A DNA stretch of 64,000 bases from Pirellulales bacterium (GCA_019745975.1 JAIESQ010000006.1:48433-112432); one strand, 5' to 3'. Shown: positions 3,889 through 32,740, counted from the stretch's first letter. Notes: generated by a model not told the origin, from the sequence alone. Translations and numbers: made by a program.

Positions 3889-3987
3889 AAGATAAACGAG
3901 ACTCGCAGCAATCAACCGTCAGTCGGAGACAGCCGCTCTTGCATAGTTCTCTCAGGAAAAACTATAAGTGCGAACAGGGAGGTTCTC

Positions 3988-5643: not shown

Positions 5644-5786
5644 CTGAAACAAGCCGGTCATCGCCCTCGGGAGCTCGCATTGTTTGACTAGGCAGCGGCG
5701 ATGGCGTTCACGGTCGCATAAGGTCGTCGACGAGTCTGCCCTTGCGCTAGGTCCCTCTTTGAGGTAAGGTACCCAGCGCGAGGCGC

Positions 5787-6185
5787 ATGCGTTCAGTTTT
5801 TCAAAGTCTTTCATTGGTGGTGGTTCTTGCCCTGATTGGGGGCACTAAACACTGCATTGTCGAACGAGTCCTCGGGAGCGCGGTCCCCCCTCTGCATGCA
5901 TGTCCGGTAGACGGGGACCCTGACGGGGATGGTTCGACGTGCGAGTCGGTCCTGCCTCTTGCAACAAAAGCAACTGAGGCAGACCGTTGGTTGGGTAACG
6001 GATCCGAACAGCCCCCAATGATCGTGTCGACTCTCTTCGGCCCGGCCACTGTTCCCCGTCCGGTCACGCCCTCACCCTCGATCTTTGAGCAGCCTTCAGC
6101 TGTCCGGGCTCGTCGCGACTACTTGCTCGCTGCCCTTTCTGGGGCCCCAAATGCGCCCCCGTACATCGCGCGATTCGCAACCTAG
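5787..6185 (+). CDS. Hypothetical secreted protein
   Basis: Signal-peptide-like N-terminus (SLSLVVVLALIGG), Cys/His/Asp-rich segment, weak GAGG upstream. Sits between the two OMF genes. Confidence 0.3.
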   Translation: MRSVFQSLSLVVVLALIGGTKHCIVERVLGSAVPPLHACPVDGDPDGDGSTCESVLPLATKATEADRWLGNGSEQPPMIVSTLFGPATVPRPVTPSPSIFEQPSAVRARRDYLLAALSGAPNAPPYIARFAT

Positions 6186-6232
6186 ATCTCAAGCGTACCT
6201 ATTTTTTTACGACGACACACTTACGGAGTTCC

Positions 6233-7471: not shown

Positions 7472-7472
7472 C

Positions 7473-8396: not shown

Positions 8397-8405
8397 GGGG
8401 GCGGT

Positions 8406-11717: not shown

Positions 11718-12239
11718 CTATGCATCGATGAACACGTAGACCCCGAAGTCCGAGGATCGGACGCTGGAGTGACCGTCAAGGAAGATGTCTCGGCTGAATG
11801 CCTCGTAGTCGATGTAGAAGCGGAGATGCTCCGGCAGCTCGTGGGCATGTAGCTCATCGAATAAGTCTTGGGCATATGCCAACTCGGAGTCCCAGCGCCC
11901 GCGGTAGGCATCTAGGAACGACTCTTCTGTCGCACTGTCGTTGCCGACGTGCGCCGCGTAGGCGGCAAAGGGCTCTCCGTACTCATCAACCAGCAAAGCT
12001 AGCCTCGACACCTCGGAGAGCGGTTCGTACTCGTCGATGCGGATTTCGCCGAAGCCCTCGTAGTCGTGGATGGCCCATTCTTGCGCGATGGATTCGGGAG
12101 ACTGCTTGAGGAGTTCTTGCACTTCCTTGTGGAGTGAGTCCGCGTCCTGGGCTGCATGGATCCATTGTCCGTGGAGGGTCCCGGCGTTGTATGCCGCGAG
12201 GCAGGCGACGTAGATCATTGGCTTCAGTTTCTGATTCAT
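11718..12239 (-). CDS. ardA: Antirestriction protein ArdA
   Basis: N-terminus IYVACLAAYNAGTLHGQWIHA, then EWAIHDYEGFG, and a strongly acidic composition, all typical of the ArdA DNA-mimic family. Confidence 0.8.
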   Translation of the reverse strand: MNQKLKPMIYVACLAAYNAGTLHGQWIHAAQDADSLHKEVQELLKQSPESIAQEWAIHDYEGFGEIRIDEYEPLSEVSRLALLVDEYGEPFAAYAAHVGNDSATEESFLDAYRGRWDSELAYAQDLFDELHAHELPEHLRFYIDYEAFSRDIFLDGHSSVRSSDFGVYVFIDA

Positions 12240-13030: not shown

Positions 13031-14005
13031 TCAGACGAGGATCCGCTCGATCTCGTCCAGCGTGATCTCGTCACCGGTGCGATCGTACAGCTTGGTGGTC
13101 CTGGGCGACTCGTGGGCGGCGATCGCCTGGGCATGTTCGATTGTGCCGCCGTTTTCGAGATAGGCTGTTATCCCCGTCGCTCTGAAGCTGTGGCAGCAGA
13201 TGCGCTCCGGGATGGCTGCCTGACGAGCTCGCCGCTTCACCATCCGTAGTGCGTCGTTCCTCGTCATCCCGCGCGCGGTGGTCCGGCCATGGCGGTCGAT
13301 CGTGCGGAAGAGGGGAGACTCGTTGTCGCCCGCGATGCGCGCCGCCAGGAGGTAGCCATCCAAGTACGCCTGGGCGTTGTGGTGTGCAGGGACTACGTGC
13401 TCTTTGCCACCTTTCTCGCGGAGCCGAAACCACGAGCGCTTCCCTTCCTGAAAGTAGTCCTCGACCTGCATCGACACGGCGGCGGATACGCGAGCGAAGC
13501 TATACACCATAAGACCAATCAGCGCGCGGTCGCGGAGACCGATGACCGACTCAACGTCAATCGAATCAAGAAGCTGGCGTGCCTCTCCTGCGGTGAGGAC
13601 GGGCGTCTTGCCACGCTTCACGATGTGCTTCGGACCACGGACGGAACTTGCGGGGTTGGTCTCGATGATGTGGCCGACGACTAGCCAGTCAAAGAGCATG
13701 CGGATAGCGGCCAGGTGTTGCTTCACGGTCGGGGCCGCATAGGCGGTCAAGAGATCCTCGATGTAGCCGGCCACAACGATCGGCTGTATCTCGCATAGTT
13801 GCCTCACACCTCGCGACTCGGACCAGTCGAGGAAGCTTGCGACGGCCCGTGTGTACGCCTCGCGCGTGTTCGCGTTGCGGATTTGTGCAGCGAAGAACTC
13901 GAGGAACTTCCGAGCTGCCTTCTCGCCACCGGCCCGGACCAGCGCGGGAACGACGGGCGCGCTAGCGGCGCCCGCTTGTCGTTTTCGAGCAAGCGACTTC
14001 TCCAT
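13031..14005 (-). CDS. Tyrosine recombinase / phage-type integrase
   Basis: C-terminal catalytic region HSFRATGITAYLENGG...AAHESPRTTKLYDR (R..HxxR..Y) and an N-terminal SAM-like domain. Start taken at MEKSLARK, with GGAGG upstream. Confidence 0.9.
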   Translation of the reverse strand: MEKSLARKRQAGAASAPVVPALVRAGGEKAARKFLEFFAAQIRNANTREAYTRAVASFLDWSESRGVRQLCEIQPIVVAGYIEDLLTAYAAPTVKQHLAAIRMLFDWLVVGHIIETNPASSVRGPKHIVKRGKTPVLTAGEARQLLDSIDVESVIGLRDRALIGLMVYSFARVSAAVSMQVEDYFQEGKRSWFRLREKGGKEHVVPAHHNAQAYLDGYLLAARIAGDNESPLFRTIDRHGRTTARGMTRNDALRMVKRRARQAAIPERICCHSFRATGITAYLENGGTIEHAQAIAAHESPRTTKLYDRTGDEITLDEIERILV

Positions 14006-14218
14006 CAACCTCCATTTCCGAAAACTTGGCCATGCGCACCATGCGATCACCGTGACACGGCCCTTGAAGATCTGTCAATCCGGCACATTACGTTCAGGAT
14101 GCCGCCGCACAACTATTCCGGCAGGTCACAGACGATATTCCGCGCACCGTCGCCATACTTGCCTGCATCCAAGTAGGGGCCGCTCAAATATCCGCGCGGC
14201 GTGCAAACGCCGACGCGT

Positions 14219-14971
14219 ATGAGTACGAACTGGAGGTCACCTGAAGAACTTGTCCAAGAGGGCTTCGACCGTTCGTCGGTAGTAATGGTGAATGAGGCGC
14301 ACGACGGTTGGGCTCGGTGCATCCGCACCCGAATTGTGGGACTTAACATTCTTGATGTTGCGCATTCCTACGGTGCGAGGTACTTGGCCATGGAAGCACT
14401 TACGCCAGAGGTCGCCGGCGCTGCAAACGCAGGCAAATGTTTGCCGAACACGACTGGTGGCTACGTGAACCAAGCGGATCTTAGATCTCTGATCGCGGAG
14501 GCGCTACGACTTGGATTCACGCTCATCGCGTACGATCCCGACTTCTGGACGTGGCGCGAACCATCATGTGCCTTCGAGTGCGCGAAGCAACGAGATAGGA
14601 TGCAGGCATCAAACCTTGCATCGGCCTGGCGGCAGGACGCAAAAATGCTTGTGTGGGCAGGGAACTTGCATATAGCTAAGGCTCCCCTGAAAACGCCAAA
14701 CGGGCCTTACCCGCAAATGGCTTACTGGTTCCGGAACCTGACGGAAATCGAACCGTTCTGCATCGATCAGACGGTGACGGTCGATTGGGCTCACGGCAAC
14801 GACCGCGGGTCTCAGCATGTCGCTCGGTTTCGTACCGAGCTTCACGGTTACGGAGGCACGGCGGGTTTCTTACGCGAGGAAGGTCCCGATCCATTTCAAC
14901 AAGAGATATACGCCGATGCCTTTCTGCTGTCACTCCACAATGCAATGACAGTTACCGCACCCGTCGCCTGA
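14219..14971 (+). CDS. Tiki/ChaN/erythromycin-esterase superfamily protein (putative hydrolase)
   Basis: VVMVNEAHDG...YLAMEAL and QRDRMQASNL...KMLVWAGNLHIAK match the GE.H / E / RD..MA.N / G..H signature of that superfamily. The 3' end overlaps the convergent ATP-grasp gene by 42 nt. Confidence 0.6.
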   Translation: MSTNWRSPEELVQEGFDRSSVVMVNEAHDGWARCIRTRIVGLNILDVAHSYGARYLAMEALTPEVAGAANAGKCLPNTTGGYVNQADLRSLIAEALRLGFTLIAYDPDFWTWREPSCAFECAKQRDRMQASNLASAWRQDAKMLVWAGNLHIAKAPLKTPNGPYPQMAYWFRNLTEIEPFCIDQTVTVDWAHGNDRGSQHVARFRTELHGYGGTAGFLREEGPDPFQQEIYADAFLLSLHNAMTVTAPVA

Positions 14972-16051
14972 AATCGCAGTCGGTGCCAGTCCGTTCGTAG
15001 CCAGGCGTGCCAACTCGTCAGCAATGGCCTCACTGATTTGCATGCCAGTCAATTGCTCGATCCAGCCCCATTGCCCGGCGGCATTAACTTCTAGAAACAC
15101 ATAGCGATCGTCTTCGGTGACGATCATGTCGATGCAACCAAACCTAAGGCCCAAGCGGCGCATTAGTGCGCGCAGACTCCGTTCAATCTGTGGCGGAAGC
15201 GTAAATGGCTGATGGTGCGGCGTTTCGGTTGGCACGTTGACGAACCGTCTGAAATCGACGCGTGTGCTGGGCCTCTCTTGAGAGAGGATTCTGCATGCGA
15301 AAATCGCGTCGCCGACGATTGTAATCCGGACATCGCATCGCTTTTTGATGAACTGCTGGAACATCACCGGCGCGATCTGGATGTGGTCCAATAAGGGTAG
15401 CCGATCCCTTGTTAGGAGTTGGGAAAAGAGAAAAAGAGACGGACGAGTGTCGTCTTGTGGGATCGCGGGCTGCCGAACAAGTCGTGGGCCGTAGGCCCGC
15501 ACCAGCTCATCTGCGTTACTGTTGTGTAACCAGGCTCCTCCCGAGACAGTCTTGAAAAGCACTTGCTCGTCGCATTCGTCAAAGAATTCCCGAGCATGCG
15601 TTGGATCATTGGTCACCAACGTTCTGGGAACGGCGAGGTGCAAGCTGCTTGCAACCGTGAGCTGATAAAGCTTATCGGTAGCACGATCCTCAGCCGCAGG
15701 GTCGTTCATCCACGGCGAGTGAAGGGTGCTAATCAAGCCGGTCAGGAGGGCACGACACTCAGTGTCGGCAAAGTGGCTTTCTGTCTCTGTCAGTCCCGCG
15801 GCAGAAACCGGCGGTACTGGCCTTCGGTACCACACCGCCTTGATGTATCGCGTATCAACTTCTCCGACAGCAGTCTCCAAGCTGGCCCAGACTTCCTTGC
15901 CGGCGATGTTCCACTGGATTGCTGTCGCTAGGGGAAACGCCTCGGTGTTGAGGCGGAACCACCGCAGACCTCGCCGTTCCAAGTGTGGGATTAGCTGGTT
16001 GACGTTTTGCTCGGCGAGGTTCGTAACGATCAGAACGGTCGGCGGTTTCAT
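14930..16051 (-). CDS. ATP-grasp ribosomal-peptide maturase (MvdC/MvdD-like)
   Basis: N-terminus MKPPTVLIVTNLAEQNVNQLIPHLERRGLRWFRLNTE. C-terminus GCIDMIVTEDDRYVFLEVNAAGQWGWIEQLTGMQISEAIADEL. Both are typical of graspetide ligases. Confidence 0.85.
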   Translation of the reverse strand: MKPPTVLIVTNLAEQNVNQLIPHLERRGLRWFRLNTEAFPLATAIQWNIAGKEVWASLETAVGEVDTRYIKAVWYRRPVPPVSAAGLTETESHFADTECRALLTGLISTLHSPWMNDPAAEDRATDKLYQLTVASSLHLAVPRTLVTNDPTHAREFFDECDEQVLFKTVSGGAWLHNSNADELVRAYGPRLVRQPAIPQDDTRPSLFLFSQLLTRDRLPLLDHIQIAPVMFQQFIKKRCDVRITIVGDAIFACRILSQERPSTRVDFRRFVNVPTETPHHQPFTLPPQIERSLRALMRRLGLRFGCIDMIVTEDDRYVFLEVNAAGQWGWIEQLTGMQISEAIADELARLATNGLAPTAISGDGCGNCHCIVE

Positions 16052-16830: not shown

Positions 16831-17913
16831 ATGGATGTGGCATGCTCGCCGAGTGCTGATTGTTTTTTGAGCGAGCCTCTTATGACATCTTTTTCAAACG
16901 AACCCGTACCTCACGCTTCATGGAGCGAAGCACGCGAGAATGCTGCTCCTACGCAACGAACCTTGCGCCTAACAACGCTTATTGAAGGGTTGAAGAATCC
17001 TGACGTGTTGGCGTGCCTTCAATCGACGAGAGCACTTGTAGACATGGGCGAGAATGCAGTAGCGGCTCTGCTCGGCGTACTCACGGAGCCAAATCCGCTG
17101 GTGCGCTTTGTAGCGGCGTCCGCTATTGCAGAGATCGGGGCCGACAAAGCGCCCTTTCTTGCTGAAGCACTTAAAGTCCTAAACAGGGATGTGCGCCTAG
17201 AGACGGCATGGGGTCTTGGACTGACGGGGGCTATTGGTGCCGATGTAGTGCTTACTCTCGCTGATGCACTTAAAGACAAAAGCGTGAGTGTGCGCCTTCT
17301 GGCAGTGTGGGCACTTGGACAGAGAGGAGTGGATGCACGTCTTGCTGTTCCCGCTTTGGCCCAAGCACTCAAAGATTCTGACGAGGACGTGCGATATGAG
17401 GCAGCGGCGGCTCTTGCAGAGATCGGAGCAGATGCGCGGGATGCAGTACCGGCCCTGGTTGAAGCCTTCAAAGATTTAAGTAAGGAAGTGCGCTCCCATG
17501 TTGTGTGGGCTCTAAGGAACATCGGGCCTGATGCAGTCTCGACACTTGCCGAAGCTCTCAAGGATCCAAACGAGGAAGTGCGCCGTCACGCAGCATGGGT
17601 TCTTGTAAACATTGGGGGAGATGCTGTGCCGGCTGTTCTTGACGCGCTCAAACACCCGAGCCAACTTCTGCGCTTCCAGGCTGTGTGGGCTCTAAAAAAC
17701 ATCGGACCGGATGCCGTGCCCACACTTGCCGGAGCCCTCAAGGATGCAAGCGCGGAAGTGCGCTTCCTAGCCGCATCGGCGCTCGGAGAGATCGGCTCGG
17801 AAGCGTGGAATGCAGTACCGGCTTTGGTGGAAGCCCTTAAAGACCCCAACAATGAGGTGCGCTCCCAGGCGGCGTGGGCACTTGGAAGGATTGACCCGCG
17901 TGTGCTTATTTGA
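16831..17913 (+). CDS. HEAT-repeat (PBS-lyase type) protein, about 9 repeats
   Basis: Repeating ~31-aa unit D..VR..AAWALG.IG.DAVPAL.EALKD. Start is ambiguous (ATG 16831 or 16882). Confidence 0.85.
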   Translation: MDVACSPSADCFLSEPLMTSFSNEPVPHASWSEARENAAPTQRTLRLTTLIEGLKNPDVLACLQSTRALVDMGENAVAALLGVLTEPNPLVRFVAASAIAEIGADKAPFLAEALKVLNRDVRLETAWGLGLTGAIGADVVLTLADALKDKSVSVRLLAVWALGQRGVDARLAVPALAQALKDSDEDVRYEAAAALAEIGADARDAVPALVEAFKDLSKEVRSHVVWALRNIGPDAVSTLAEALKDPNEEVRRHAAWVLVNIGGDAVPAVLDALKHPSQLLRFQAVWALKNIGPDAVPTLAGALKDASAEVRFLAASALGEIGSEAWNAVPALVEALKDPNNEVRSQAAWALGRIDPRVLI

Positions 17914-18389: not shown

Positions 18390-19028
18390 ATGCAGCCTTT
18401 CTCCGTGCATCGTTCCAACCCGAACCGCAGCGCTGAGATGCACAAGACTTTGCTCTTCGTTCAGCGTCGGCTGTGCCGCACCATGAAGAATCAGAAGGTC
18501 GTGGGCCGCCGCGACTGGAACGGCCGGAAAGTCTCGCAGGCGGACTTCGATGCCGGCGACCGCAGCGCACACGTCTGTCCGTTCGTGCAGGATGCGCTAG
18601 ATCGCGACTTCCTTTGGCTGGAGGAGTCAAACAAGAGCACGCAAAGCGACGTGGAAGCTCTCCTGCAAAACCAGGTCGATCTCTTTATTCATACTCCCCC
18701 AGTCCACGACCCCGTGGCAACGCAACTACCTGCGAAAACGCCGGACCTCTGGAAGGCGTTCATCACCATTTTCCCTTTCCTGCCGCTGGACAGCAATCTC
18801 ATCCGGTCAATTCATCTGACGCTCAAGCCGCAGTTCGTCGCCAAGGGCTTGATGATCGGGGAGTTCTTTCCCGGTTTTACGGGTCAGAAAGGCATCCATA
18901 ACGACGTTGACTTTTTCCCGGGCATTGCCCCCTACCCCCTGTTCGCGATCAGATACATGGTCGAGTCGGACCGGCTCTTCAATCGCGACCCCCTGTACGA
19001 CGCCCACTATCGCCGCTATTTCCCCTAG
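18390..19028 (+). CDS. Hypothetical protein
   Basis: 212-aa ORF with protein-like composition. Start uncertain (ATGs at 18390, 18435, 18483). No family recognised. Confidence 0.5.
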   Translation: MQPFSVHRSNPNRSAEMHKTLLFVQRRLCRTMKNQKVVGRRDWNGRKVSQADFDAGDRSAHVCPFVQDALDRDFLWLEESNKSTQSDVEALLQNQVDLFIHTPPVHDPVATQLPAKTPDLWKAFITIFPFLPLDSNLIRSIHLTLKPQFVAKGLMIGEFFPGFTGQKGIHNDVDFFPGIAPYPLFAIRYMVESDRLFNRDPLYDAHYRRYFP

Positions 19029-21787: not shown

Positions 21788-22879
21788 TTATGCCGCGACT
21801 GCTGCTAGCGCCAAGAGCTTTGACGCTTTCTCGTCCGCGTCCGTGCGGTCGCCGGCGTTGGAAGTCTCACGTGCAAGCCGCGTCAGGGCGTCCACCAGCG
21901 CGAAGATGGTGAACCTCCCCTGCTGCGCGGCTATCTCCAAAGCCTGCTTTGCAACGCTTCGAGCGATGCCGTTCTTCGCCAGGACCTTCATCACTTCCTC
22001 AGCGTCGTCGCCGAGCTTTGTCTCCATCGCCTTTTGGATCACCGTCGCAAAGCCATCTCTTCGCTTGTCGCGTTCGACGACTAGGCTCTCGATGATCCGA
22101 CGGATCTCGCGGAGGGACTCGTGGACGTTCGCCGTATGCTTTCGAGTGAACTCGAAGACATCCACGGCGTCCCAGACGATATGGTTCTGGCACACGGCCT
22201 GGAACCAAAAGGTCTGGATACCCAGCGAGCGCCGTCCCACTTCCGAGTTCCAGATGAAGAACCCGGGGGCGAACGCCTCGCCGTCGATCTCAGTCCAGCC
22301 GGCCGGGTCGATGAGAAAACAGAACAGGTCCTGTTCTCCCGAATACAGCCCGGTCGCTCCATTGAACCCCCTCTGCGGGGGCTGGAAGTCGACGGCAAAC
22401 TCCTGGAGCATGGCGATGAGGTCCGCGTCAAAGAGCCGCGTGTAGCTTGTCCCGTGGATCGAACGGATGTTCTCCCCTTCGGTAAAAAGCTGGAGCGGCT
22501 TAGTGCCTCGCGGAAGCGTCTCCGCGAAGACTTGCGACGCGGTCTCTGGAGAGAGTCGGTTGACCGTCTCCTTCCCTACCCCGGCCAGTTTGCAGAGCTG
22601 GCTGAAGCTCCAGTCGTTCATCAGGAAGGCGCCGTCGTTCCCTGCTGATAGCAGGAGGCCATTTCCGTCTACCGGATCGATGGCGAGCTGCGCCGGCAGC
22701 TGCCAACGGTCCTGGGAGTGCTCCTGTTTCGCCCTACAGTGGACAGACAACGCAGCCAACGACTCGAACCTCTCGTCGTCGGTCCTGCGGAACAGTTCAC
22801 TGTGGGCACGTGTCAGGTTCTGCACGATCTTTGTCCTTTCTGTTTGGAACCCATGTTTGAAACCGACCATCGGTCTCAT
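21788..22879 (-). CDS. DUF932-like protein (plasmid/ICE/phage associated)
   Basis: Core FFIWNSEVGRRSLGIQTFWFQAVCQNHIVW matches the NS.dGs.s...vC.N signature of DUF932. GAGG upstream of the ATG. Confidence 0.8.
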   Translation of the reverse strand: MRPMVGFKHGFQTERTKIVQNLTRAHSELFRRTDDERFESLAALSVHCRAKQEHSQDRWQLPAQLAIDPVDGNGLLLSAGNDGAFLMNDWSFSQLCKLAGVGKETVNRLSPETASQVFAETLPRGTKPLQLFTEGENIRSIHGTSYTRLFDADLIAMLQEFAVDFQPPQRGFNGATGLYSGEQDLFCFLIDPAGWTEIDGEAFAPGFFIWNSEVGRRSLGIQTFWFQAVCQNHIVWDAVDVFEFTRKHTANVHESLREIRRIIESLVVERDKRRDGFATVIQKAMETKLGDDAEEVMKVLAKNGIARSVAKQALEIAAQQGRFTIFALVDALTRLARETSNAGDRTDADEKASKLLALAAVAA

Positions 22880-23084: not shown

Positions 23085-23275
23085 CTTTCGCCTGCCTTCG
23101 TCGGCCTGTCATCGTCGGGGCTCACCCAGTGAGGCCGTCCGGCCCTTGGCCCCGACGAGGACGGGACAGAGAAGGCAGAGTCGTGCGAGAGTGCTCTCCG
23201 CACGTTAACGGTGGGTCCGAGAGAGCCTGCCTTTGTTGGTCCGATTCCGAGGGGCTCGTCCGCCGGCTGCCTATT
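23085..23275 (+). repeat. Structured non-coding element, family 1, copy A
   Basis: Roughly 75 percent identical, by eye, to 32545-32740. About 90-nt imperfect hairpin (GCCTTCGTCGGCCTGTCATCGTCGGGG ... CCCCGACGAGGACGGGACAGAGAAGGC), then conserved CCTGCCTTTGTTGGTCCGATTCCGAGGGGCTCGTCCG. Confidence 0.5.
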
Positions 23276-23571: not shown

Positions 23572-23715
23572 GTGGCCGGTTCAGCCACGAGTAAGTTAGT
23601 CGTGCGACCGGACCACGTAGCGTCGGGGGCAAGTCAAGGAGGAACGTACCGAAGGGCGGCAATTCCTTGACTGGTCAGCCTCGATGCGCAGTGAGGAAAC
23701 GGAAGACCTTATGCA
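23572..23715 (-). promoter_or_regulatory. Conserved ~145-nt leader element, family 2, copy 1
   Basis: Shares three blocks with 25345-25492: the GTGGCC..GGCCAC-type hairpin, CCACGAGTWARTTAGTCG, and the hairpin GTCAAGGA-(23 nt)-TCCTTGAC. Confidence 0.55.
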
Positions 23716-24664: not shown

Positions 24665-25030
24665 TCAGTCCTCGTCGGGGAGCATGACGGTGATGACCGG
24701 CTCCAGGTCATCGCCCGCACCGCAGACCGCCTTGAGCGTTACGAGCTCGTCGAGACGGTTGTGATTGCGGACAGAGAGCCCGAAGAAGAGCGTATCGACA
24801 TCGAGGTGGCGGCGGATGGCACACGAGAGCATCCACAGGATGTCCCAGAGCCTGCCCGCTTCGTCCTGAGCTTGGACGCCTTCGGGTACTTCAATGTACT
24901 TGGTCCAGACGGCTCGCGTCAGAGCTACCGGATAGCGGAAGCCAGCCTCTCGGGCGGTCCCTGTCACGTCGATGAGCACTCCGTCTTCGATGGCGTGCTG
25001 TCTGCTGTAAGAGCTGATGATGTCGTTCAT
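24665..25030 (-). CDS. Conserved hypothetical protein (MGE-type)
   Basis: AAGGAGG 6 nt upstream. The N-terminus MNDIISSYSRQHAIEDGVLIDVT resembles a family I recall from plasmid/ICE contexts. Unverified. Confidence 0.65.
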   Translation of the reverse strand: MNDIISSYSRQHAIEDGVLIDVTGTAREAGFRYPVALTRAVWTKYIEVPEGVQAQDEAGRLWDILWMLSCAIRRHLDVDTLFFGLSVRNHNRLDELVTLKAVCGAGDDLEPVITVMLPDED

Positions 25031-25084: not shown

Positions 25085-25324
25085 TTATTCCGCCCGTTGT
25101 TCCTCGGTCCGGATCAAGTACGCATGTGCGTCTTGTGCCAGTTTGACCAACGACACCAGGTCGCTGCGACCGAAGCTGGTCGAGTCTCTAGGCTGGTCTG
25201 CGGTGTAGTACACCCGCGAGAAGGTCACGCAGTGGCGGGTATCCCCTTGTTTCGTCTTGTTGGCCCAGATCGCGGCACTGACGCCTTGCTCCTTGAGCTT
25301 GTGGATTGGCTTATTCGATCCCAT
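25085..25324 (-). CDS. Small conserved protein, paralog 3 of 3 (PC4/YdbC-like suspected)
   Basis: GGAG 7 nt upstream of ATG 25324 (MGSNKPIHKL...). Aligns with paralog 2. Confidence 0.65.
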   Translation of the reverse strand: MGSNKPIHKLKEQGVSAAIWANKTKQGDTRHCVTFSRVYYTADQPRDSTSFGRSDLVSLVKLAQDAHAYLIRTEEQRAE

Positions 25325-25344
25325 GTGGTTTCTCCATTTCAATG

Positions 25345-25492
25345 GTGGCCTTAGGCGGCCACGAGTTAATTAGTCGAGAGGCCACAACGCGGAGCAACCG
25401 AGGTACGTCAAGGAGGAACGCACCGCCAGGGCGGCAATTCCTTGACGCTCCGCCTCGGGGCGCAGCGAGAGGGAACGAGATACTAATGCGAG
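25345..25492 (-). promoter_or_regulatory. Conserved ~145-nt leader element, family 2, copy 2
   Basis: GTGGCCTTAGGCGGCCAC hairpin, CCACGAGTTAATTAGTCG, GTCAAGGAGGAACGCACCGCCAGGGCGGCAATTCCTTGAC, then CCTCGGGGCGCAGCGAGAGGGAACGAG. Confidence 0.55.
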
Positions 25493-25944: not shown

Positions 25945-27501
25945 TTACCGTGGCCGGCGCAGGCAGCAGCGCTTGAACTTCTTGCCGCTGCCGCACGGGC
26001 AAGGCTCGTTGCGACCGACTTTAACGCGGGAGGCGCTCTGATGATGGCTGGCTAGCTCAGTCGCGATGCGGGTGGGAGGGAGGAGCGGACGGTCGGTGAA
26101 GCGGTGTACCGGGCCTTCACCGGAGACTTCCAGCTCCTTCTGGATGTCGGCGGCCGAAGACTCCATTTCGGGCGTCCATCGATCGCCTTCTAGGATGACG
26201 ACGTCGAAGGTGCGGTACGGTTCTTCGCCAGCTTCGGACGCAATGCCCAGCACGCGTCGATACCGTCGGTGTTTGCTGGCGACAAGGAAACAGTAGTCGC
26301 GCAGGTATTGTTGCCGAGCCTGACGGTACTCAGTGACGGACGGGAAGGCATTGGGGACGAACACGAAGACGTAGAGGGTGTCGAGGAGCGATGGTGACGC
26401 GACGACCCTGTAGTCGACCCTATCTTTCGTGCCATGCGTCCAGCGTTCGTACATCTTCGCAGCGAGGAAGGCGCGGGCCCAGCGCGGTTCTTTCGCCATG
26501 CAACGGAAGATCTGTTCGTTCGCGGTCACGGTCTCGGGGCTGCCCTGGACGAGTGTGCCGGCGAAAGCATGCGTGGCGAACTCTTGGATGATGTGGTCCC
26601 AGATATAGCTTGGCTGGAGAGTTCGTCGCGATTCGCGGTACCAGTCGGTCTCCGTGACCAGGTCCCAGGGACCATCGCCGACGTGCACGAGAGCGCCGTC
26701 CTTCGCCTCGCTCAACAGGGTGCGCCAGTCGCCGGTGTGGACGTAGCGGCTCAGGAACAAGCCGAGGAGGTTCTCTTCACCGGCGACGTGTCCGATCTTG
26801 TTCGATTGGAATAGTGCCTCCTTGAACTCAAGGTAGGACACGAGGTCGGTGACTGTGTCGAGTTCTTTCAGGATCAGCGGGAGGGTGAAGTCATCGAGGA
26901 CATGGAAATACCGTGCGTCGGCGCCGACAGAACCGACTGCGAAAGGCTGGACATCGAAGGCCTGTAGGTCGTAGTGGGCTCTGCCGACGATCGCGGGCGA
27001 GAGCGAGAGGCTGCCGCTGCCGCCTCGATGCTGACGGCAGCAATCCTGTGCACCTAGGGCGACGACGATCCGATGGAAACGGCACGTGGCGATATCAGGC
27101 AACGAGACCGGCAAGGGCTCAGTGCACTTATTGTCTAAGTAGACTCGGTCGGGGTGCTGGTTGAGCCAGCGTTCTGCTCCGATCAGTTGTCTGGCAGACT
27201 CGCTGACCGTCTTTCGGAACCAGCGGGACCAGTCGAGTTTCACGTTGCCGGTGTCAGGGAAGGCGCAGCTCTTGTCGGAGAAGAGGAGGATGTGGTTGTC
27301 GCAGACGACGGTCAGGTCACAGAGCTCCTTGGGTCCGCCCTGGTCGCGGAACGTGTTCGCATAGCTCCAGAAACCCAAGAACGTCTGCTCGCAGAGTCTC
27401 GCCACCAGTCGCTCGCTCGGAGTGCTCCCTTCGGATTTGGTTGGGGCCATCATCCATGTCCGTGGCGGGTGGCGGCGGGGCAGAGCTTCGAACGGGTTCA
27501 C
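25945..27501 (-). CDS. Protein with N-terminal PD-(D/E)xK/NERD-like core and C-terminal SEC-C zinc motif
   Basis: The C-terminus ends in NEPCPCGSGKKFKRCC. The N-terminus has SERLVARLCE...ELCDLTVVCDNHILLFSDKS. GTG start at 27501; the alternative is MMAPT at 27453. Confidence 0.8.
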   Translation of the reverse strand: MNPFEALPRRHPPRTWMMAPTKSEGSTPSERLVARLCEQTFLGFWSYANTFRDQGGPKELCDLTVVCDNHILLFSDKSCAFPDTGNVKLDWSRWFRKTVSESARQLIGAERWLNQHPDRVYLDNKCTEPLPVSLPDIATCRFHRIVVALGAQDCCRQHRGGSGSLSLSPAIVGRAHYDLQAFDVQPFAVGSVGADARYFHVLDDFTLPLILKELDTVTDLVSYLEFKEALFQSNKIGHVAGEENLLGLFLSRYVHTGDWRTLLSEAKDGALVHVGDGPWDLVTETDWYRESRRTLQPSYIWDHIIQEFATHAFAGTLVQGSPETVTANEQIFRCMAKEPRWARAFLAAKMYERWTHGTKDRVDYRVVASPSLLDTLYVFVFVPNAFPSVTEYRQARQQYLRDYCFLVASKHRRYRRVLGIASEAGEEPYRTFDVVILEGDRWTPEMESSAADIQKELEVSGEGPVHRFTDRPLLPPTRIATELASHHQSASRVKVGRNEPCPCGSGKKFKRCCLRRPR

Positions 27502-27523
27502 TCCGGCAAGAGTGTCCTGAGGG

Positions 27524-27889
27524 CTACTCTCCGTGCGGCAAGTCGCGGATCCAGTTGCTCAGTACTTTGGCCGCGGCACGGGCGACGGTGACCTCGAACT
27601 GCTCGTGCTTCTCCGCTGCCGCGGCGCGGTACTTCTCGGCGTCCCTGATGTACATCAACTCGATCACGTTGAGGACGTAGAACTCGAGCTTGCCGTCGTC
27701 TTCCTCAGGTCGATCGAACACCAAGGTCTGGGAGTTGACTAGGTCGCGGCATATCTGGATCGCCGCGAACTGTTCAAGCGTAAGTGCGAGCGACGTGGAC
27801 CTCTCGATCGCTTCGGGTTTCTTCTCGACATACATGGACTGCAAGTTGCTTGCAATCCAGCTGGCGGCTTCTTGTTCGTTGTACTGCAT
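27524..27889 (-). CDS. Small acidic helical protein, 121 aa
   Basis: In-frame ATG (MQYNEQEAASWI...) within ORF 27524..28087. Sits between the two nuclease-like genes, 22 nt upstream of the SEC-C gene. Confidence 0.6.
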   Translation of the reverse strand: MQYNEQEAASWIASNLQSMYVEKKPEAIERSTSLALTLEQFAAIQICRDLVNSQTLVFDRPEEDDGKLEFYVLNVIELMYIRDAEKYRAAAAEKHEQFEVTVARAAAKVLSNWIRDLPHGE

Positions 27890-27995
27890 GGGGTTCCGCG
27901 CTGTGCTCCGCGACCTGTGCCTAAGGACGAATGTGGCGTTGGGCTGTTGGATGCAGGCGAGTCGCATGGGCGGGCGTCGTCGTCGTGTCCCTAAC

Positions 27996-28018
27996 AGTTG
28001 TCGTGGGCGGGGACAGGT
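27996..28018. promoter_or_regulatory. 23-nt conserved operator-like motif, site 1
   Basis: AGTTGTCGTGGGCGGGGACAGGT matches 29872-29894 at 21/23. Imperfect inverted half-sites AGTTGTC / GACAGGT. Confidence 0.5.
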
Positions 28019-28067
28019 AAATTCAGAAGAGCCTCGACTGGGGCCGTCGATTGACCCGCGGCTTTGC

Positions 28068-29702
28068 TCAGGCCGTAGGAACAACACCCACTGCGAACGG
28101 CCAACGCTGCGCGTCCTTGAAGCCGTCCATGAGCTGGGTAAGGGAGACGCACGGGTAATCGGGGATGAAATAGCTGGCGTACGTCGGGTGCAGTGTCACC
28201 AGCGCGCCCGCCAAGTGGGTCGGCGCCACTCGGGGGCACCCGGGCAGCAACGAGGACAGACCTGTGCAGACGGCCGGGAGGTTCGCCCGCACCCAGGTGA
28301 GCTTCCGTCGCAGCTGCTCGGCGTAAGGCTTGCTGCCGGTGACGAAGCTGCTTATGTCGTCCCGGAAATAGCTCGGCTCGGAGGCACCATCGACAAATTT
28401 GTCTTCTAGCAAGACCAGCAGCTGGTGCTCTGGCAGATAGCCGAGGTAGTCGATCTCTCCAACGGCCGGCGGGGTTTGGATGCGGTCAACCCCTAAGCCG
28501 ATCCCGTCTTTCAGTGACGGCTTCCCAACGAAACCAAGCACCGCCATGTTGCTGTCTACCTGGTCTTCGAACCATTTGCCCACTTTTCTCTGGAGAGCGG
28601 CGAGAGCTGTGTCGATTGGGCCAGCCTTCCACTCTGGAGGACAGCGCTGGAAGAGTGTGCCCTTCATTAGCTCGAACAGGCATTCGCGGGCCATCGTGCG
28701 CGACCACACGAGGTGTGGCCCGGTCTCGTGCGGCATCTCGAAGAACGCGCGGCGGAGGGCGCGGTATTCCTGCTTCGGCTTGAAGATCGTTCGGTTCTCT
28801 TGCTCCATTTTCAGCTTCGGGAGCGAGAAGCCGTCGAGAAGCTGCTCGATCGCATCCGCGTGCCAGCCCGTCGCTTGTCGGATCTGCTCGATGATGAGCG
28901 CACGCCGGACGAACGGGACATCGAAGCTGTCGGGGTCTGGGACGACCGCCCCATCGACCACCTGCATCAACGCCTGGATCCCGTCCTTGTATCCGAAGCC
29001 GAATGCAGCGCGAAAGCCCTCATCGAGCTCCGCGGCCTGGTAGTTCAAGTCGTAGCGGAGGGGCAGGCCTGCCAGATACTCTTTCTGTCGGGCAGTGTCG
29101 CGGCCAATCCGAGATGGGAAGTCGCTGTATCGCTCGAAGTGCTGGACCTTCAACTCAAGGTAGTCCAACGTTCCTTCGGGATGGATCGTGAGTACCGTGT
29201 CGTCGGGATGGACACCATGCGTCTGGTCGCTCAAGTGGTAGAGCTGGACGAGCATCTCGCTGCATATGACGATCGTGTCCAGGTTAAGAGGCATTGCCGC
29301 TCTCTCGAGCGCCGGTGCTTCGGGCGGTGCGAGCATCGCCACGACTTCCGCCAAGTGTTTCAGGGCGCGGCGAATGAGCGGTCCGTGGTTCGCCCAGTAC
29401 GCCGTGTCGTCGCCCGACAGGCGACCTGATTTGTGCAGCTGGGTGACTTTCGCCGCCGCGTCATACTGGCCGAGGAGGAACTCCATTAACTGGCGTGACG
29501 CTGACTTCGGGATCTCGGCGTGCAGCAGGCTGTAGAAATGGGCGAACCGCGACTGGATGATCTCGTTGATCTTCTTGGGGTCCTTGTAGACGCCGCTTGA
29601 ATAGCCGTCGCGGAGTTGCTTCTCGGCCTCGGTCCGCGCGAGTACCTCGCTCTGAAGTCGCGGGCGATACAGGAGGACGCCGCCAACCCGTTTGACTTCC
29701 AT
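28068..29702 (-). CDS. Large protein with C-terminal PD-(D/E)xK-like nuclease core
   Basis: WFEDQVDS...GEIDYLGYLPEHQLLVLLEDKFV gives the E / D / ExK order. GAGGGAAGG upstream of the ATG. No family recognised for the N-terminal ~400 aa. Confidence 0.8.
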   Translation of the reverse strand: MEVKRVGGVLLYRPRLQSEVLARTEAEKQLRDGYSSGVYKDPKKINEIIQSRFAHFYSLLHAEIPKSASRQLMEFLLGQYDAAAKVTQLHKSGRLSGDDTAYWANHGPLIRRALKHLAEVVAMLAPPEAPALERAAMPLNLDTIVICSEMLVQLYHLSDQTHGVHPDDTVLTIHPEGTLDYLELKVQHFERYSDFPSRIGRDTARQKEYLAGLPLRYDLNYQAAELDEGFRAAFGFGYKDGIQALMQVVDGAVVPDPDSFDVPFVRRALIIEQIRQATGWHADAIEQLLDGFSLPKLKMEQENRTIFKPKQEYRALRRAFFEMPHETGPHLVWSRTMARECLFELMKGTLFQRCPPEWKAGPIDTALAALQRKVGKWFEDQVDSNMAVLGFVGKPSLKDGIGLGVDRIQTPPAVGEIDYLGYLPEHQLLVLLEDKFVDGASEPSYFRDDISSFVTGSKPYAEQLRRKLTWVRANLPAVCTGLSSLLPGCPRVAPTHLAGALVTLHPTYASYFIPDYPCVSLTQLMDGFKDAQRWPFAVGVVPTA

Positions 29703-29871: not shown

Positions 29872-29894
29872 AGTTGTCGCGGCCGGGGACAGGT
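29872..29894. promoter_or_regulatory. 23-nt conserved operator-like motif, site 2
   Basis: AGTTGTCGCGGCCGGGGACAGGT, about 170-190 nt upstream of the 29702 start codon. Confidence 0.5.
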
Positions 29895-31640: not shown

Positions 31641-32261
31641 TCAACGACGCCCGCGCCTTTCGGCTGAAGAGGTGCCACTTCCCCCGCTCGCTGACGCAGG
31701 TGAAGCGAGCTCGTTCGCGCTCGGGCAGTTTGGGTATGTCCTGGCCGCGCAGGATGAGGTACCTAGCCCATTGCGCGAGGCATCCGATATAGCGAAGAGG
31801 TAAAGGGAATAGGTGGATCCCGCGACTAGTGCCGCTAGAGTCACATCCGTGACGCTGGCACCAGCAAGGAAGAAGAACATTGCCGAACTGAAAGCTATCA
31901 GCGCGGCAGCGACGCCCACTTCCTCCCCAAAGAATCGCTTCCCGTAGCTCCAGATGACCACGAGTAGAGCGACGGCAGCCAACCAGCTTGGGAGGCGCGC
32001 TGTCCACTCATCGATTTCGAACAGACGATACGCACTGGCCGTCAGCCAAAAGTGCAGCGGTGGCTTCCCGAAGTATGGGACTATCCCTTCGGGCATCGGC
32101 AGCCGAGGCGTAAGCCAATCGTGCAAGAGTACCATCTCTTGCGCGACGCTCGCGTAACGTGTCTCTGTCGGATCGAGCAGGTCCGTGTACCCTAGGAGGA
32201 AGCCACGCAAGAGAACGGCGCCCAGGAGCAATAGAAGAGGAACACGTATGACGCTGGTCAT
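31641..32261 (-). pseudogene. Truncated ArnT/PMT-type GT-C glycosyltransferase fragment (N-terminal ~165 aa only)
   Basis: DPTETRYASVAQEMVLLHDWLTPRLP...YFGKPPLHFWL...EWTARLPSWL is the conserved N-terminal module. After about residue 165 the frame degenerates into low-complexity S/A/G/R sequence, and no continuation was found in other frames. Confidence 0.6.
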
Positions 32262-32544
32262 GTGGTACGACAGTAGCGCCTCATTAGTGAATCCACAAGG
32301 TCGAGCGCATCTAAGGCCCGGCGTAGGCCCGATGCTTCCGACGCAGGGAGACCGACCTCGGTCGTCCTAAGGCACGGACACGGGAGGCGCAGAAAACGCC
32401 GTTGGCGACTCCGAGCGCAGCTTAGAAGGCATTGGAGACAGCGGCGGCGGCGCGAAGCCGTAGATGGTCTGAGGAATTGCGTAGCTGAGCCAGTTGAGCT
32501 TTGAGGTTCGACAGTCTCGGCACGAGCGCCCTCTCCTAAGGAGT

Positions 32545-32740
32545 CTTCGCCTGCCTTCGTCCGCCTGTCATCGTCGGGGCTCGCCCGCTGAGGCCGAAGG
32601 GCCGTTGGCCCCCGACGGGGACGGGGCGGCGAAGGCGAGGTACTGTCCGTCTCCGCCTGCTGGATTTGCCGCAAACAGCGGGCGGGCTACAGGCGGACCT
32701 GCCTTTGTTGGTCCCGATTCGGAGGGGGCTCGTCCGGGGT
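32545..32740 (+). repeat. Structured non-coding element, family 1, copy B
   Basis: GCCTTCGTCCGCCTGTCATCGTCGGGG ... CCCCGACGGGGACGGGGCGGCGAAGGC hairpin, then CCTGCCTTTGTTGGTCCCGATTCGGAGGGGGCTCGTCCG. Confidence 0.5.

What the first reader, a model, noticed from the sequence alone, without database searches (positions are those of the whole stretch)
25945..29702. Three-gene minus-strand module with two paralogous PD-(D/E)xK-like cores, a SEC-C zinc motif and a small acidic protein: candidate uncharacterised defence or addiction system
Gene order on the minus strand is 544 aa, then 121 aa, then 518 aa. The 544-aa protein ends with an E / D / ExK arrangement (WFEDQV ... GEIDYLGYLPEHQLLVLLEDKFV). 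The 518-aa protein begins with the same block (SERLVARLCE ... ELCDLTVVCDNHILLFSDKSC), which aligns residue for residue (D-x8/9-H-x-LL-x-[LF]-[ES]-DK). In the 518-aa copy the first acidic residue of ExK is Ser, so that copy may be catalytically altered. The 518-aa protein ends in a textbook SEC-C metal-binding motif (CPCGSGKKFKRCC). A 121-aa strongly acidic helical protein lies between them, only 22 nt from the SEC-C gene. I do not recognise this architecture as any named defence system. It sits in a mobile island next to anti-restriction genes, a typical neighbourhood for defence or exclusion cargo.
Basis: partly seen in the sequence, partly recalled or inferred. Interest (0 to 1): 0.78.

Follow-up and report, generated by a model that had tools for sequence, protein, structure and literature searches.

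The report
Two stand-alone nuclease defence genes
The three neighbouring genes are not one system. They are two unrelated single-gene nucleases carried on mobile DNA, one a short relative of the known anti-phage protein Upx and the other an uncharacterised, widespread family with a SEC-C zinc tail, with a small unrelated gene between them.

Summary
The three minus-strand ORFs, the SEC-C motif and the mobile, anti-restriction neighbourhood are real. The "three-gene module with two paralogous cores" is not.

- **No synteny.** In about 55 loci with a homologue of the 544-aa gene and 82 loci with a homologue of the 518-aa gene, the other two genes never co-occur. Neither family has any conserved neighbour. 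Only strains about 93% identical in DNA keep the order, and there the 518-aa gene is disrupted.
- **No paralogy.** BLASTP and profile-profile comparison find no similarity between the two large proteins.
- **544-aa protein.** It has an invariant E…D…ExK site. By structure and by profile it is a free-standing homologue of the C-terminal nuclease half of Upx, and it lacks Upx's N-terminal sensor and middle domains. The family has over 1,200 clusters, nearly all 520-600 aa, and is often next to restriction-modification (RM), BREX or pAgo genes.
- **518-aa protein.** It belongs to a large unstudied family (phrog_18195) found on IncN plasmids, a phage satellite, prophages and CBASS/RM islands. It has a conserved non-canonical D…SDK nuclease-like N-terminus.
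- **121-aa protein.** It has only seven homologues, each upstream of a different gene.
- **In passing.** SEC-C also caps 8 of 185 Upx-like proteins.

Verdict: adjacent independent defence-type cargo. Moderately interesting.

The parts
28068..29702 (-). Gene A, 544 aa. A stand-alone homologue of the Upx C-terminal domain (PD-(D/E)xK nuclease).
   Evidence: ORF. An identical 544-aa protein is called in the public collection (P0001). AlphaFold model pLDDT 90.6. The Foldseek top PDB hit is 9wuf Upx: E 1.2e-10, probability 1.0, 569 aligned columns. The family profile hits 9wuf_A at E 0.004.
28194..28622 (-). Catalytic core of A (residues 361-503). E379 is at 28566-28568, D418 at 28449-28451, E433 at 28404-28406 and K435 at 28398-28400.
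   Evidence: The four residues are invariant in 34 sequences. They sit on helix 361-388, strand 417-423 and strand 428-435 of the model. They align to the mapped Upx catalytic residues D1161, E1176 and K1178 (PMC13099982).
27524..27889 (-). Gene B, 121 aa. A small, moderately acidic conserved protein of unknown function. It is not a dedicated partner of A or C.
   Evidence: Seven homologues at 66-98% identity, 102-122 aa, with the same start. No match in Pfam, PADLOC, NCBIfam or PHROGs. Its homologues lie upstream of unrelated genes.
25945..27501 (-). Gene C, 518 aa from the GTG start, or more likely 502 aa from the ATG at 27453. A member of a large uncharacterised family (phrog_18195, annotated 'SEC-C metal-binding domain-containing protein' or 'YecA family protein').
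   Evidence: ORF. More than 309 homologues. 366 loci among GTDB species genomes across many phyla. phrog_18195 matches full length at E 1.4e-54. Present on 148 plasmids. Model pLDDT 86.3.
27157..27429 (-). N-terminal nuclease-like domain of C (residues 25-115). Conserved residues: E30, E59, D62, S75-D76-K77.
   Evidence: E30, E59, S75 and K77 are invariant. D62 and D76 are at least 90% conserved in 42 sequences. Predicted order is helix 28-38, strands 46-53, 57-67 and 70-75, then helix 87-115. Only weak, non-significant Foldseek hits, many of them PD-(D/E)xK exonucleases.
25957..26013 (-). SEC-C zinc-knuckle motif of C (residues 497-515, RNEPCPCGSGKKFKRCCLR), after a disordered linker.
   Evidence: Pfam PF02810 E 1.8e-9. 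The profile matches the SecA and YchJ metal-binding tails in the PDB. Residues 472-492 have pLDDT below 50. 91 of 120 family members carry the motif.
29872..29894 (-). 23-nt motif ACCTGTCCCCGGCCGCGACAACT, 170-192 nt upstream of the start of A. Possibly a shared operator or cassette junction (inference).
   Evidence: Two copies in the window against 0.01 expected by chance. The similarity does not extend beyond about 24 nt.
27996..28018 (-). Second copy of the motif (ACCTGTCCCCGCCCACGACAACT), 107-129 nt upstream of the start of B, inside the A-B spacer.
   Evidence: (family D8).

Best explanation
The segment is a stretch of accessory cargo in an integrated mobile element. It holds two independent single-gene cassettes plus a small gene. 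It is not one system.

**Gene A** is a free-standing version of the effector half of the anti-phage protein Upx.
- It has an N-terminal helical region equivalent to Upx residues about 735-1120.
- This is followed by a canonical PD-(D/E)xK nuclease using E379, D418, E433 and K435.
- It most likely acts as a Mg2+-dependent nuclease that destroys nucleic acid when an invading element is present. By analogy with the Upx C-terminal domain, the substrate would be single-stranded DNA degraded 3'->5'.
- Because it lacks the Upx N-terminal sensor and the middle domain, it must be controlled differently. The control could come from its own helical region or from expression level.

**Gene C** belongs to a separate, widespread, horizontally mobile family.
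- It has an N-terminal nuclease-like domain with a conserved non-canonical D...S-D-K site.
- It has two further domains and a flexible linker ending in a SEC-C zinc knuckle.
- It most likely is also a stand-alone conflict nuclease. In SecA-like proteins the SEC-C knuckle binds SecB and ribosomes, so here it may dock the enzyme to a cellular partner.

**Gene B** is a small conserved protein that travels with different cargo genes and has no established link to A or C.

**Shown:** gene structure, conserved residues, homology of A to the Upx C-terminal domain, absence of synteny, and genomic contexts.

**Inferred:** nuclease activity, defence function, activation, and the role of SEC-C.
For: **Independence of the genes**
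- tblastn with A, B and C against 53 A-family and 80 C-family loci finds no co-occurrence. About 30 of the A loci have more than 2 kb downstream, and most C loci have 8 kb on both sides.
- The closest homologues show the same. A at 66% identity in Fimbriiglobus ruber lies between an AAA kinase-like gene and a type I RM plus pAgo. Another A at 66% is flanked by transposases. C at 60% sits between two CBASS operons and a type I RM. Another C at 60% sits alone.
- Clustering of all neighbouring ORFs gives no recurrent partner.

**A resembles the Upx C-terminal domain**
- Foldseek E 1.2e-10, probability 1.0.
- The profile alignment pairs GEID...ECK with Upx GDID...ECK, with identical 15-residue D-to-E spacing. 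The colinear offset of about 735 places A on Upx residues 735-1272.
- Upx D1161, E1176 and K1178 are catalytic and needed for defence (PMC13099982, PMC13601566).

**The A family is a genuine short form**
- 1,244 representative clusters match. Among the best 150 listed, nearly all full-length hits are 520-600 aa.
- 160 of 185 sequences keep G[ED]xD...[ED]xK.

**Neighbours of A**
- The commonest Pfam families are ResIII, N6_Mtase, Eco57I, HsdR, MmeI and transposases, with single cases of BrxL and HaeIII.
- PADLOC hits among the neighbours include MADS, type I RM, PDC-S14 and DrmMI.

**The C family**
- Its conserved polar residues fit an active enzyme.
- It is spread across many bacterial phyla, candidate phyla radiation (CPR) bacteria and an archaeon at 34-42% identity.
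- It is in PHROGs and in 25 IMG/VR contigs.
- It is on 148 plasmids, 92 of them conjugative. These include IncN plasmids and a Klebsiella satellite-like element, where it lies between the primase and the capsid genes.

**SEC-C**
- SEC-C-type domains bind SecB and ribosomes (bioRxiv 10.1101/613315).
- A SEC-C protein, Rugutis, is a proven single-gene defence (PMC11381338).
Against: - No experiment supports a defence function for either family.
- No PADLOC model matches A or the body of C.
- The nuclease fold of C is not established. The best Foldseek E-values are 0.028 (PDB) and 0.043 (BFVD), and the motif is S-D-K, not (D/E)-x-K.
- Many C-family neighbours are housekeeping genes. I could not compute a defence-island enrichment against a background.
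- C is absent from 50,697 deposited phage genomes.
- A and the B-C unit share a 23-nt upstream motif, so local co-regulation is possible.
- The A-B-C order is retained in strains about 93% identical in DNA.
- A lacks the domains that sense phage terminase in Upx, so the analogy says little about its trigger.
Confidence: 0.6

Rival explanations
1. In this lineage A, B and C work together as one co-regulated three-gene defence or exclusion system, even though the combination is not conserved elsewhere.
For: - All three genes have the same orientation with short spacers.
- The same 23-nt motif lies upstream of A and of B.
- No terminator-like site was found on the minus strand between the genes.
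- The order is retained in contigs about 93% identical in DNA from several samples.
Against: - No co-occurrence in about 137 loci of the two families.
- In the related strains C appears broken after about residue 113, while A and B stay intact.
- Both families are typical single-gene cassettes in other genomes.
- Retention at 93% DNA identity is simply shared ancestry.
Confidence: 0.08
2. B and C form a two-gene toxin-antitoxin or addiction pair. The small acidic B neutralises the nuclease C and stabilises the island.
For: - B lies directly upstream of C, 22-70 nt away depending on the start.
- B is small and acidic.
- B homologues precede other possible effectors, including a receiver-TIR protein.
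Against: - None of 82 C-family loci has a B homologue. No recurrent small upstream gene was found.
- C homologues stand alone on plasmids and on the satellite.
- The downstream genes of B homologues are unrelated to each other and to C.
- B sits 318 nt from the TIR gene, which does not suggest an operon.
Confidence: 0.07
3. The genes are anti-defence or establishment functions of a conjugative element's leading region, like ArdA. They would protect the incoming element rather than the host.
For: - They share orientation and island with ArdA, DUF932 and DUF6573.
- C homologues are backbone genes of conjugative IncN plasmids, a few kb from ardK, ardB, ardR and mucAB.
- 92 of 148 plasmids carrying C are conjugative.
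Against: - A is homologous to the effector of a proven defence protein.
- A homologues sit beside RM, BREX and pAgo genes in chromosomes.
- C homologues sit inside CBASS/RM islands. One lies between the primase and capsid genes of a satellite-like element. From my own knowledge, that position is typically occupied by defence cargo.
- C is absent from deposited phage genomes.
Confidence: 0.12
4. One or both are nucleases with a non-conflict role, for example DNA repair or recombination, or processing of the element's own DNA.
For: - Many C-family neighbours are housekeeping genes.
- The weak structural neighbours of C are recombination exonucleases of the RecB, Cas4 and YqaJ type.
- The IncN homologue lies near mucAB.
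Against: - Both families have a patchy, cross-phylum distribution with no conserved neighbours.
- They are carried on plasmids, satellites and prophages.
- C is disrupted in a closely related strain and frameshifted in one IncN plasmid. This fits dispensable cargo.
Confidence: 0.1

Closest known systems
Upx (single-protein anti-phage system; Salmonella enterica SeUpx, 1272 aa, PDB 9wuf)
   Same: - Gene A matches the Upx C-terminal domain (residues about 735-1272) in fold: Foldseek E 1.2e-10.
- It matches in catalytic signature: FE...G(E/D)ID...ECK with identical D-to-E spacing.
- Like Upx it is a single gene with no conserved partner.
   Different: - A is 544 aa. It lacks the Upx N-terminal domain (1-515, the terminase sensor and second atypical nuclease) and the middle domain (516-714), which boosts activity of the C-terminal domain (PMC13099982, PMC13601566).
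- Sequence similarity is marginal: profile E 0.004 and no PADLOC hit.
- Published Upx censuses removed truncated proteins and seeded on N-terminal and central regions, so this short family was not counted.
- Some members carry an N-terminal SEC-C motif instead.
PD-(D/E)xK exonucleases of the RecB / Cas4 / YqaJ / RecE type
   Same: - The N-terminal domain of C has the helix, three strands, helix order.
- It has a conserved Glu on the first helix, Asp on the second strand and Lys just after the third strand.
- Its weak Foldseek neighbours are mostly such nucleases.
   Different: - No significant match by structure or sequence.
- The motif is S-D-K, with the acid next to the Lys rather than two residues before it.
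- The protein has about 350 further residues with no recognisable relatives, plus a SEC-C tail.
SEC-C metal-binding domain of SecA, YecA and YchJ
   Same: The last 19 residues of C match PF02810 and the SecA and YchJ tails in the PDB. As in SecA, they follow a flexible linker.
   Different: Only the tail matches. NCBIfam YecA/YchJ-type models score 16-40 bits against cut-offs of 120-158. The database name 'YecA family protein' is therefore a mislabel of the protein body.
Rugutis (lactococcal plasmid single-gene anti-phage system with a SEC-C motif)
   Same: It is a plasmid-borne single protein whose only recognisable feature is a SEC-C motif, and it has proven anti-phage activity (PMC11381338). 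This is a precedent for SEC-C-tagged stand-alone defence proteins.
   Different: Rugutis is 359 aa with the motif at the N-terminus. Homology of the protein bodies was not tested because its sequence was not at hand.

Membership tests
Upx | C-terminal PD-(D/E)xK nuclease with catalytic D...ExK (SeUpx D1161, E1176, K1178) | tested here: met
   A has D418, E433 and K435, plus E379. They are invariant in 34 sequences and align to Upx 1119-1179.
Upx | Overall fold of the C-terminal domain (residues 715-1272) | tested here: met
   Foldseek against the PDB gives 9wuf as the only significant hit: E 1.2e-10, probability 1.0, TM 0.54 on the query, 569 columns. The two colinear profile segments give an offset of about 735.
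Upx | Large N-terminal sensor domain (1-515) and middle domain (516-714) in the same polypeptide, about 1200-1300 aa in total | tested here: not met
   A is 544 aa. Nearly all full-length family hits listed are 520-600 aa. There is no co-oriented gene upstream of A in the window and no conserved neighbour elsewhere. The one long member listed (P0280, 1051 aa) has an N-terminal half with no PADLOC match that is unrelated to C.
Upx | Single-gene system | tested here: met
   No recurrent neighbour in about 55 loci.
Upx | Anti-phage activity triggered by the phage large terminase | not testable with these tools
   This needs plaque assays and co-expression toxicity screens.
PD-(D/E)xK superfamily (gene C) | Restriction-endonuclease-like alpha-beta-beta-beta-alpha core | tested here: inconclusive
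   The secondary-structure order fits. The best Foldseek E-values are 0.028 (CidB nuclease domains) and 0.043. The weak hits are enriched in PD-(D/E)xK exonucleases. Model coordinates could not be inspected.
PD-(D/E)xK superfamily (gene C) | Catalytic D...(D/E)-x-K signature | tested here: not met
   The family consensus is D62...S75-D76-K77. Ser is invariant at the canonical acid position. An active variant site is possible but unproven.
   BLASTP shows nothing. hhalign probability is 0.8% for the full proteins and 0.25% for the core segments.
SEC-C motif (PF02810) | CxC...SG.K.K.CC zinc knuckle scoring above the Pfam gathering score | tested here: met
   37.7 bits against a cut-off of 20.4.
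YecA / YchJ family (database name for C homologues) | Full-length match to the family models | tested here: not met
   Only residues 479-515 match, at 16-40 bits against cut-offs of 120-158.
Multi-gene defence system or toxin-antitoxin pair (A-B-C or B-C) | Gene combination conserved across divergent genomes | tested here: not met
   Zero co-occurrence. The partners of B homologues differ. The order is kept only at about 93% DNA identity.

The most novel reading that the evidence does not exclude
The SEC-C zinc knuckle is a portable docking tag that unrelated stand-alone defence nucleases have acquired independently. It is at the C-terminus in about three quarters of the C family and at the N-terminus in 8 of 185 short Upx-like proteins. 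It also occurs in PADLOC's E2 and E1-E2 models, in PDC-S12 and in Rugutis. Because SEC-C domains bind ribosomes and SecB, the tag could station these nucleases at translating ribosomes. There they could sense nascent or unfolded phage proteins, which would fit the proposal that Upx recognises an unfolded terminase ATPase, possibly co-translationally. On this reading the C family would be a new, widespread single-gene immune sensor-effector, present on clinically important IncN plasmids.
Probability: 0.12. Interest if true: 0.75.

Novelty: new variant of a known kind. Interest (0 to 1): 0.42.

Why it matters
- **A short form of Upx.** The effector half of Upx exists as a large family of autonomous proteins of about 540 aa (more than 1,200 clusters at 50% identity) that published Upx surveys excluded. 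How a nuclease without the terminase-sensing domains is kept harmless and then triggered is a concrete question.
- **A candidate defence gene on clinical plasmids.** The 518-aa family is an unstudied, cross-phylum gene. It is present on conjugative IncN resistance plasmids, on a Klebsiella phage satellite and inside CBASS/RM islands, which makes it a reasonable candidate for a new single-gene defence.
- **A testable idea about SEC-C.** The motif recurs on both families, which suggests it has a role in immunity proteins.
- **A general caution.** Adjacent genes in a defence island should not be read as an operon-level system without a synteny test.

Tried and rejected
- **Split Upx.** I tested whether A plus C (plus B) are a split Upx, with C as the N-terminal domain and B as the middle domain. 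I rejected this. C has no significant PDB match and 9wuf is not among its top 50 hits. The gene order would be permuted, and the genes never co-occur.
- **Fusion evidence.** The one long A-family protein among the 150 hits listed (P0280, 1051 aa) has an N-terminal half unrelated to C (hhalign probability 0.1%).
- **A longer B.** The 187-aa ORF version of B overlapping the end of A is unlikely. Most homologues start at the same Met as the 121-aa form. The gene downstream of A in F. ruber is unrelated.
- **Partners of B homologues.** The 189-aa, 276-aa and receiver-TIR proteins are unrelated to each other, to A or to C.
- **The 23-nt motif elsewhere.** It occurs in none of the 143 loci fetched at the time and in no IMG/VR contig.
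- **Other negative searches.** Rfam finds nothing in the window. There are no tRNA genes. No sigma-70-like promoter was found in 25.6-30.3 kb. A relatives are absent from IMG/VR and C relatives from deposited phage genomes.
- **Literature.** Searches for the C family under 'SEC-C', 'YecA family protein' and IncN found no functional study.
- **Not done.** I could not superpose models directly or inspect coordinates.

Full report
**What is in the sequence.**
- The minus strand carries three ORFs: A (28068-29702, 544 aa), B (27524-27889, 121 aa) and C (25945-27501, 518 aa from a GTG start).
- A longer 187-aa form of B that overlaps the end of A is unlikely. Most B homologues start at the same Met.
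- C homologues begin a few residues before the conserved KSxGxTPSER block. The ATG at 27453 (Met17, 502 aa) is therefore a better start, and the B-C gap is then 70 nt rather than 22.
- Pfam, PADLOC and NCBIfam recognise nothing in A or B. In C they recognise only the SEC-C motif at residues 497-515.
- The surroundings are a mobile island: a heavy-metal efflux cluster (1.5-11.6 kb), ArdA (11718-12239), a tyrosine integrase (13031-14050), a weak DUF932 match (21788-22879) and DUF6573 (24665-25030). There is no tRNA gene in the window.

**Are the two large proteins paralogous?**
- They are not, as far as sequence methods can tell. BLASTP finds no significant alignment and does not even list the motif segment.
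- Profile-profile comparison of the two families gives 0.8% probability. When restricted to the two putative cores it gives 0.25%, and the motifs do not align.
- The two segments, GEIDYLGYLPEHQLLVLLEDK and ELCDLTVVCDNHILLFSDK, differ by two residues between the His and the Lys.
- The His and the Asp of 'EDK' in A are not conserved in the A family, whose consensus is AECK. The 'residue for residue' match is partly coincidence.

**Gene A.**
- An alignment of 34 homologues (36-70% identity) has invariant E379, D418, E433 and K435.
- The AlphaFold model is confident, with pLDDT 90.6. It places these residues on a helix (361-388) and on two consecutive strands (417-423 and 428-435).
[quoted passage not shown] Unrelated PD-(D/E)xK enzymes follow at E above 0.2.
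- A profile of the A family also finds Upx by sequence (E 0.004). It pairs WFE/GEID/ECK with Upx FE/GDID/ECK at residues 1119-1179. A second colinear segment (A 227-303 with Upx 960-1033) gives an offset of about 735.
- Upx has an N-terminal domain (1-515), a middle domain (516-714) and a C-terminal domain (715-1272). Its catalytic D1161, E1176 and K1178 are required for defence (PMC13099982).
- Upx's N-terminal sensor recognises phage large terminase (PMC13601566).
- A therefore corresponds to the Upx C-terminal domain alone.
- An exhaustive profile search finds 1,244 representative clusters (236 at E <= 1e-30). Among the best 150 listed, nearly all full-length hits are 520-600 aa. This is a true short family, not a set of fragments.
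- The published Upx census removed truncated proteins and seeded on N-terminal and central regions. It would not have included this family.

**Gene C.**
- The family is large. There are more than 309 clusters and 366 loci among GTDB species genomes. These span Planctomycetota, Acidobacteriota, Chloroflexota, Bacillota, Cyanobacteria, Proteobacteria, candidate phyla radiation (CPR) bacteria and an archaeon at 34-42% identity. That pattern points to horizontal transfer.
- Invariant or nearly invariant residues include E30, E59, D62, S75, D76, K77, Q105, E110, H143, H200 and D203. The SDK triplet occurs in 98 of 120 sequences. The Ser is thus a family trait, not a decayed copy.
- The model (pLDDT 86.3) predicts helix 28-38, strands 46-53, 57-67 and 70-75, then helix 87-115. 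This is the order of a restriction-endonuclease-like core. Further domains, a disordered linker (472-492) and the zinc knuckle follow.
- No structural match is significant. The best are the CidB nuclease domains (E 0.028, PDB) and E 0.043 in BFVD. Many of the weak hits are RecB, Cas4, YqaJ and RecE-type PD-(D/E)xK exonucleases. I rate the nuclease fold of C as likely but unproven.
- By sequence only the SEC-C tail matches solved structures. The database name 'YecA family protein' rests on that tail alone.
- C matches phrog_18195 over its full length (E 1.4e-54).

**Is it a three-gene system?**
- I fetched 48 metagenomic loci for the A family and 80 genomic loci for the C family. I added loci for the closest homologues.
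- tblastn with A, B and C shows that no A locus contains B or C, and no C locus contains A or B.
- Clustering every neighbouring ORF within 4 kb found no recurrent partner for either family. The largest cross-locus clusters cover at most 10 of 137 loci, on either side and either strand.
- Contexts of close homologues are telling:
  - A at 66% identity in Fimbriiglobus ruber lies beside a type I RM system and a pAgo gene.
  - Another A at 66% lies between transposases.
  - A at 38% follows an MmeI-like enzyme and a TIR-like protein.
  - C at 60% lies between two CBASS operons and a type I RM system.
  - Another C at 60% stands alone.
- Among 125 neighbours of A, the commonest Pfam families are ResIII, N6_Mtase, Eco57I, HsdR, MmeI and transposases, with single BrxL and HaeIII cases. 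PADLOC hits among them include MADS, type I RM, PDC-S14 and DrmMI.
- Neighbours of C are more mixed. Some are RM, TIR, TrwB, WYL, MADS or PD-T4-6 proteins, but many are housekeeping genes.
- C is also on 148 plasmids, 92 of them conjugative.
  - On IncN pKPC_FCF/3SP it lies between repA and the resolvase, near ardK, ardB and mucAB, and is frameshifted there.
  - In a Klebsiella satellite-like element it lies between the DUF5906 primase and the capsid genes. From my own knowledge, that position is typically occupied by defence cargo.
- There are 25 IMG/VR contigs with C and none with A. No deposited phage genome carries C.

**The only conserved A-B-C order.**
- Short contigs from several samples that are about 93% identical in DNA to the window keep the 3' end of A, then B, then the start of C.
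- In three contigs the identity stops at exactly 27163 (C residue about 113), shortly before each contig ends. This suggests an insertion or rearrangement that disrupts C.
- This is shared recent ancestry, not evolutionary conservation. It also shows that C is dispensable.

**Gene B.**
- B has seven homologues (66-98% identity, 102-122 aa, mostly planctomycete) and is clearly a real gene.
- It is moderately acidic, with pI 4.8.
- Each homologue precedes a different, mutually unrelated gene: a 189-aa protein, a 276-aa protein or a receiver-TIR (CAP12-type) protein. Integrases, transposases, an Mrr-SNF2 giant protein or an integron-cassette protein lie nearby.
- B is therefore a small protein of mobile or variable regions, not a dedicated partner of C. 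I could not assign it a function.

**A local link.**
- A 23-nt sequence, ACCTGTCCCCGSCCRCGACAACT, occurs exactly twice in the window. One copy is 170-192 nt upstream of A and the other is 107-129 nt upstream of B. The chance expectation is 0.01. Similarity does not extend beyond it.
- It may be a shared operator or a cassette junction.
- It is the only evidence for local coupling of A with B-C, and it keeps a small probability on a lineage-specific joint unit.

**SEC-C as a recurrent tag.**
- 91 of 120 C-family proteins end in SEC-C. Unexpectedly, 8 of 185 A-family proteins begin with one, for example P0307 [22 protein letters not shown].
- PADLOC models PDC-S12, E2 and E1-E2 match the same tail.
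- The lactococcal single-gene defence Rugutis has SEC-C as its only recognisable feature (PMC11381338).
- SEC-C-type domains bind SecB and ribosomes (bioRxiv 10.1101/613315).
- This supports, but does not prove, the idea that the tag docks stand-alone immune nucleases to a common cellular partner.

**Conclusion.**
This is conflict-type cargo in a mobile island, and A has a genuine restriction-endonuclease-like active site.
- The unit, however, is the single gene. A is a new short variant of a known kind, the Upx effector domain on its own. C is an uncharacterised family that deserves testing as a single-gene defence. B is unexplained.
- The mechanisms given for A and C are inferences from homology (A) and from conserved residues plus context (C).

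Noticed in passing
window 23087-23242 and 32546-32714: There are two copies of a structured repeat, 9.46 kb apart. Each has a core of about 95 nt at 88% identity plus a second conserved block. They bracket the segment that holds DUF6573, C, B, A and a 309-aa ORF. Each core folds as a long imperfect hairpin as ssDNA (-33.8 and -33.3 kcal/mol, z -5.3 and -3.5), and several differences between the copies keep the pairing. It could be an att or attC-like site, a single-strand promoter or a REP-like element. It has no Rfam match.
   Followed up: partly
window 23584-23671 and 25358-25446: An element of about 88 nt is repeated 1.77 kb apart (75% identity, then 19 nt identical). The second copy lies directly upstream of the 85-aa minus-strand ORF at 25085-25342. 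It contains a GTCAAGGA...TCCTTGAC inverted repeat over an AAGGAGG-like site. Folding energy is not significant (z about -1.3). It may be a shared promoter or leader of island genes.
   Followed up: partly
P0189, P0209, P0215, P0226, P0255, P0275, P0296, P0307 (A-family proteins): 8 of 185 short Upx-like proteins carry an N-terminal SEC-C zinc knuckle (positions 9-29). The otherwise unrelated C family carries the same motif at its C-terminus.
   Followed up: partly
L171, L172, L174 against window 27163: In contigs about 93% identical in DNA from several samples (ERR147907xx), identity to the window stops at exactly 27163 (C residue about 113), and the contigs end 60-210 nt later. This suggests an insertion or rearrangement that disrupts gene C in a related strain.
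   Followed up: partly
L001 6093-11665 (also L002, L003): An A homologue (38% identity) lies directly downstream of, and co-oriented with, an MmeI-family RM enzyme (946 aa) and a 343-aa protein that matches a PADLOC TIR effector model. The gene ends overlap or lie about 40 nt apart. This could be a local composite defence locus.
   Followed up: no
L142 657-2571, L140 706-6954, L138 8001-8952: Homologues of the small protein B sit next to an integron-cassette family protein (VCH_CASS14) and a receiver-TIR (CAP12/Pycsar-type) protein, next to a 1387-aa Mrr_cat-SNF2 helicase protein, or upstream of unrelated unknown proteins. B seems to mark variable cargo regions.
   Followed up: partly
L169 (IncN plasmid pKPC_FCF/3SP) 8983-10457; L170 (K. 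pneumoniae pKpnB3_1) 8986-10458: C-family genes are backbone or accessory genes of clinical elements. In this IncN plasmid the gene is split by a frameshift between repA and the resolvase, while it is intact in other plasmids at a similar record position. A copy is also intact in an integrase-AlpA-primase-capsid satellite-like element.
   Followed up: partly
window 14930-16051, 16831-17913, 18390-19028: The island also carries an MvdD/RimK-type ATP-grasp ligase (microviridin-like maturation enzyme), a HEAT-repeat protein whose gene holds internal repeats at multiples of about 90 nt, and a DUF6875 protein.
   Followed up: no
window 31641-32261 and 32258-32674 (minus strand): Two abutting ORFs lie here. 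The first (31641-32261, 206 aa) matches the first 100 or so positions of the PMT_2 glycosyltransferase model. This may be a split or truncated gene at the edge of the inserted segment.
   Followed up: no
window 1468-11636: A heavy-metal type cluster lies next to ArdA and the integrase: a P-type ATPase with an HMA domain, two outer-membrane efflux proteins, a membrane-fusion protein and an AcrB/CzcA-type RND pump. G+C content is about 58-62% up to roughly 35 kb and 63-69% beyond.
   Followed up: no
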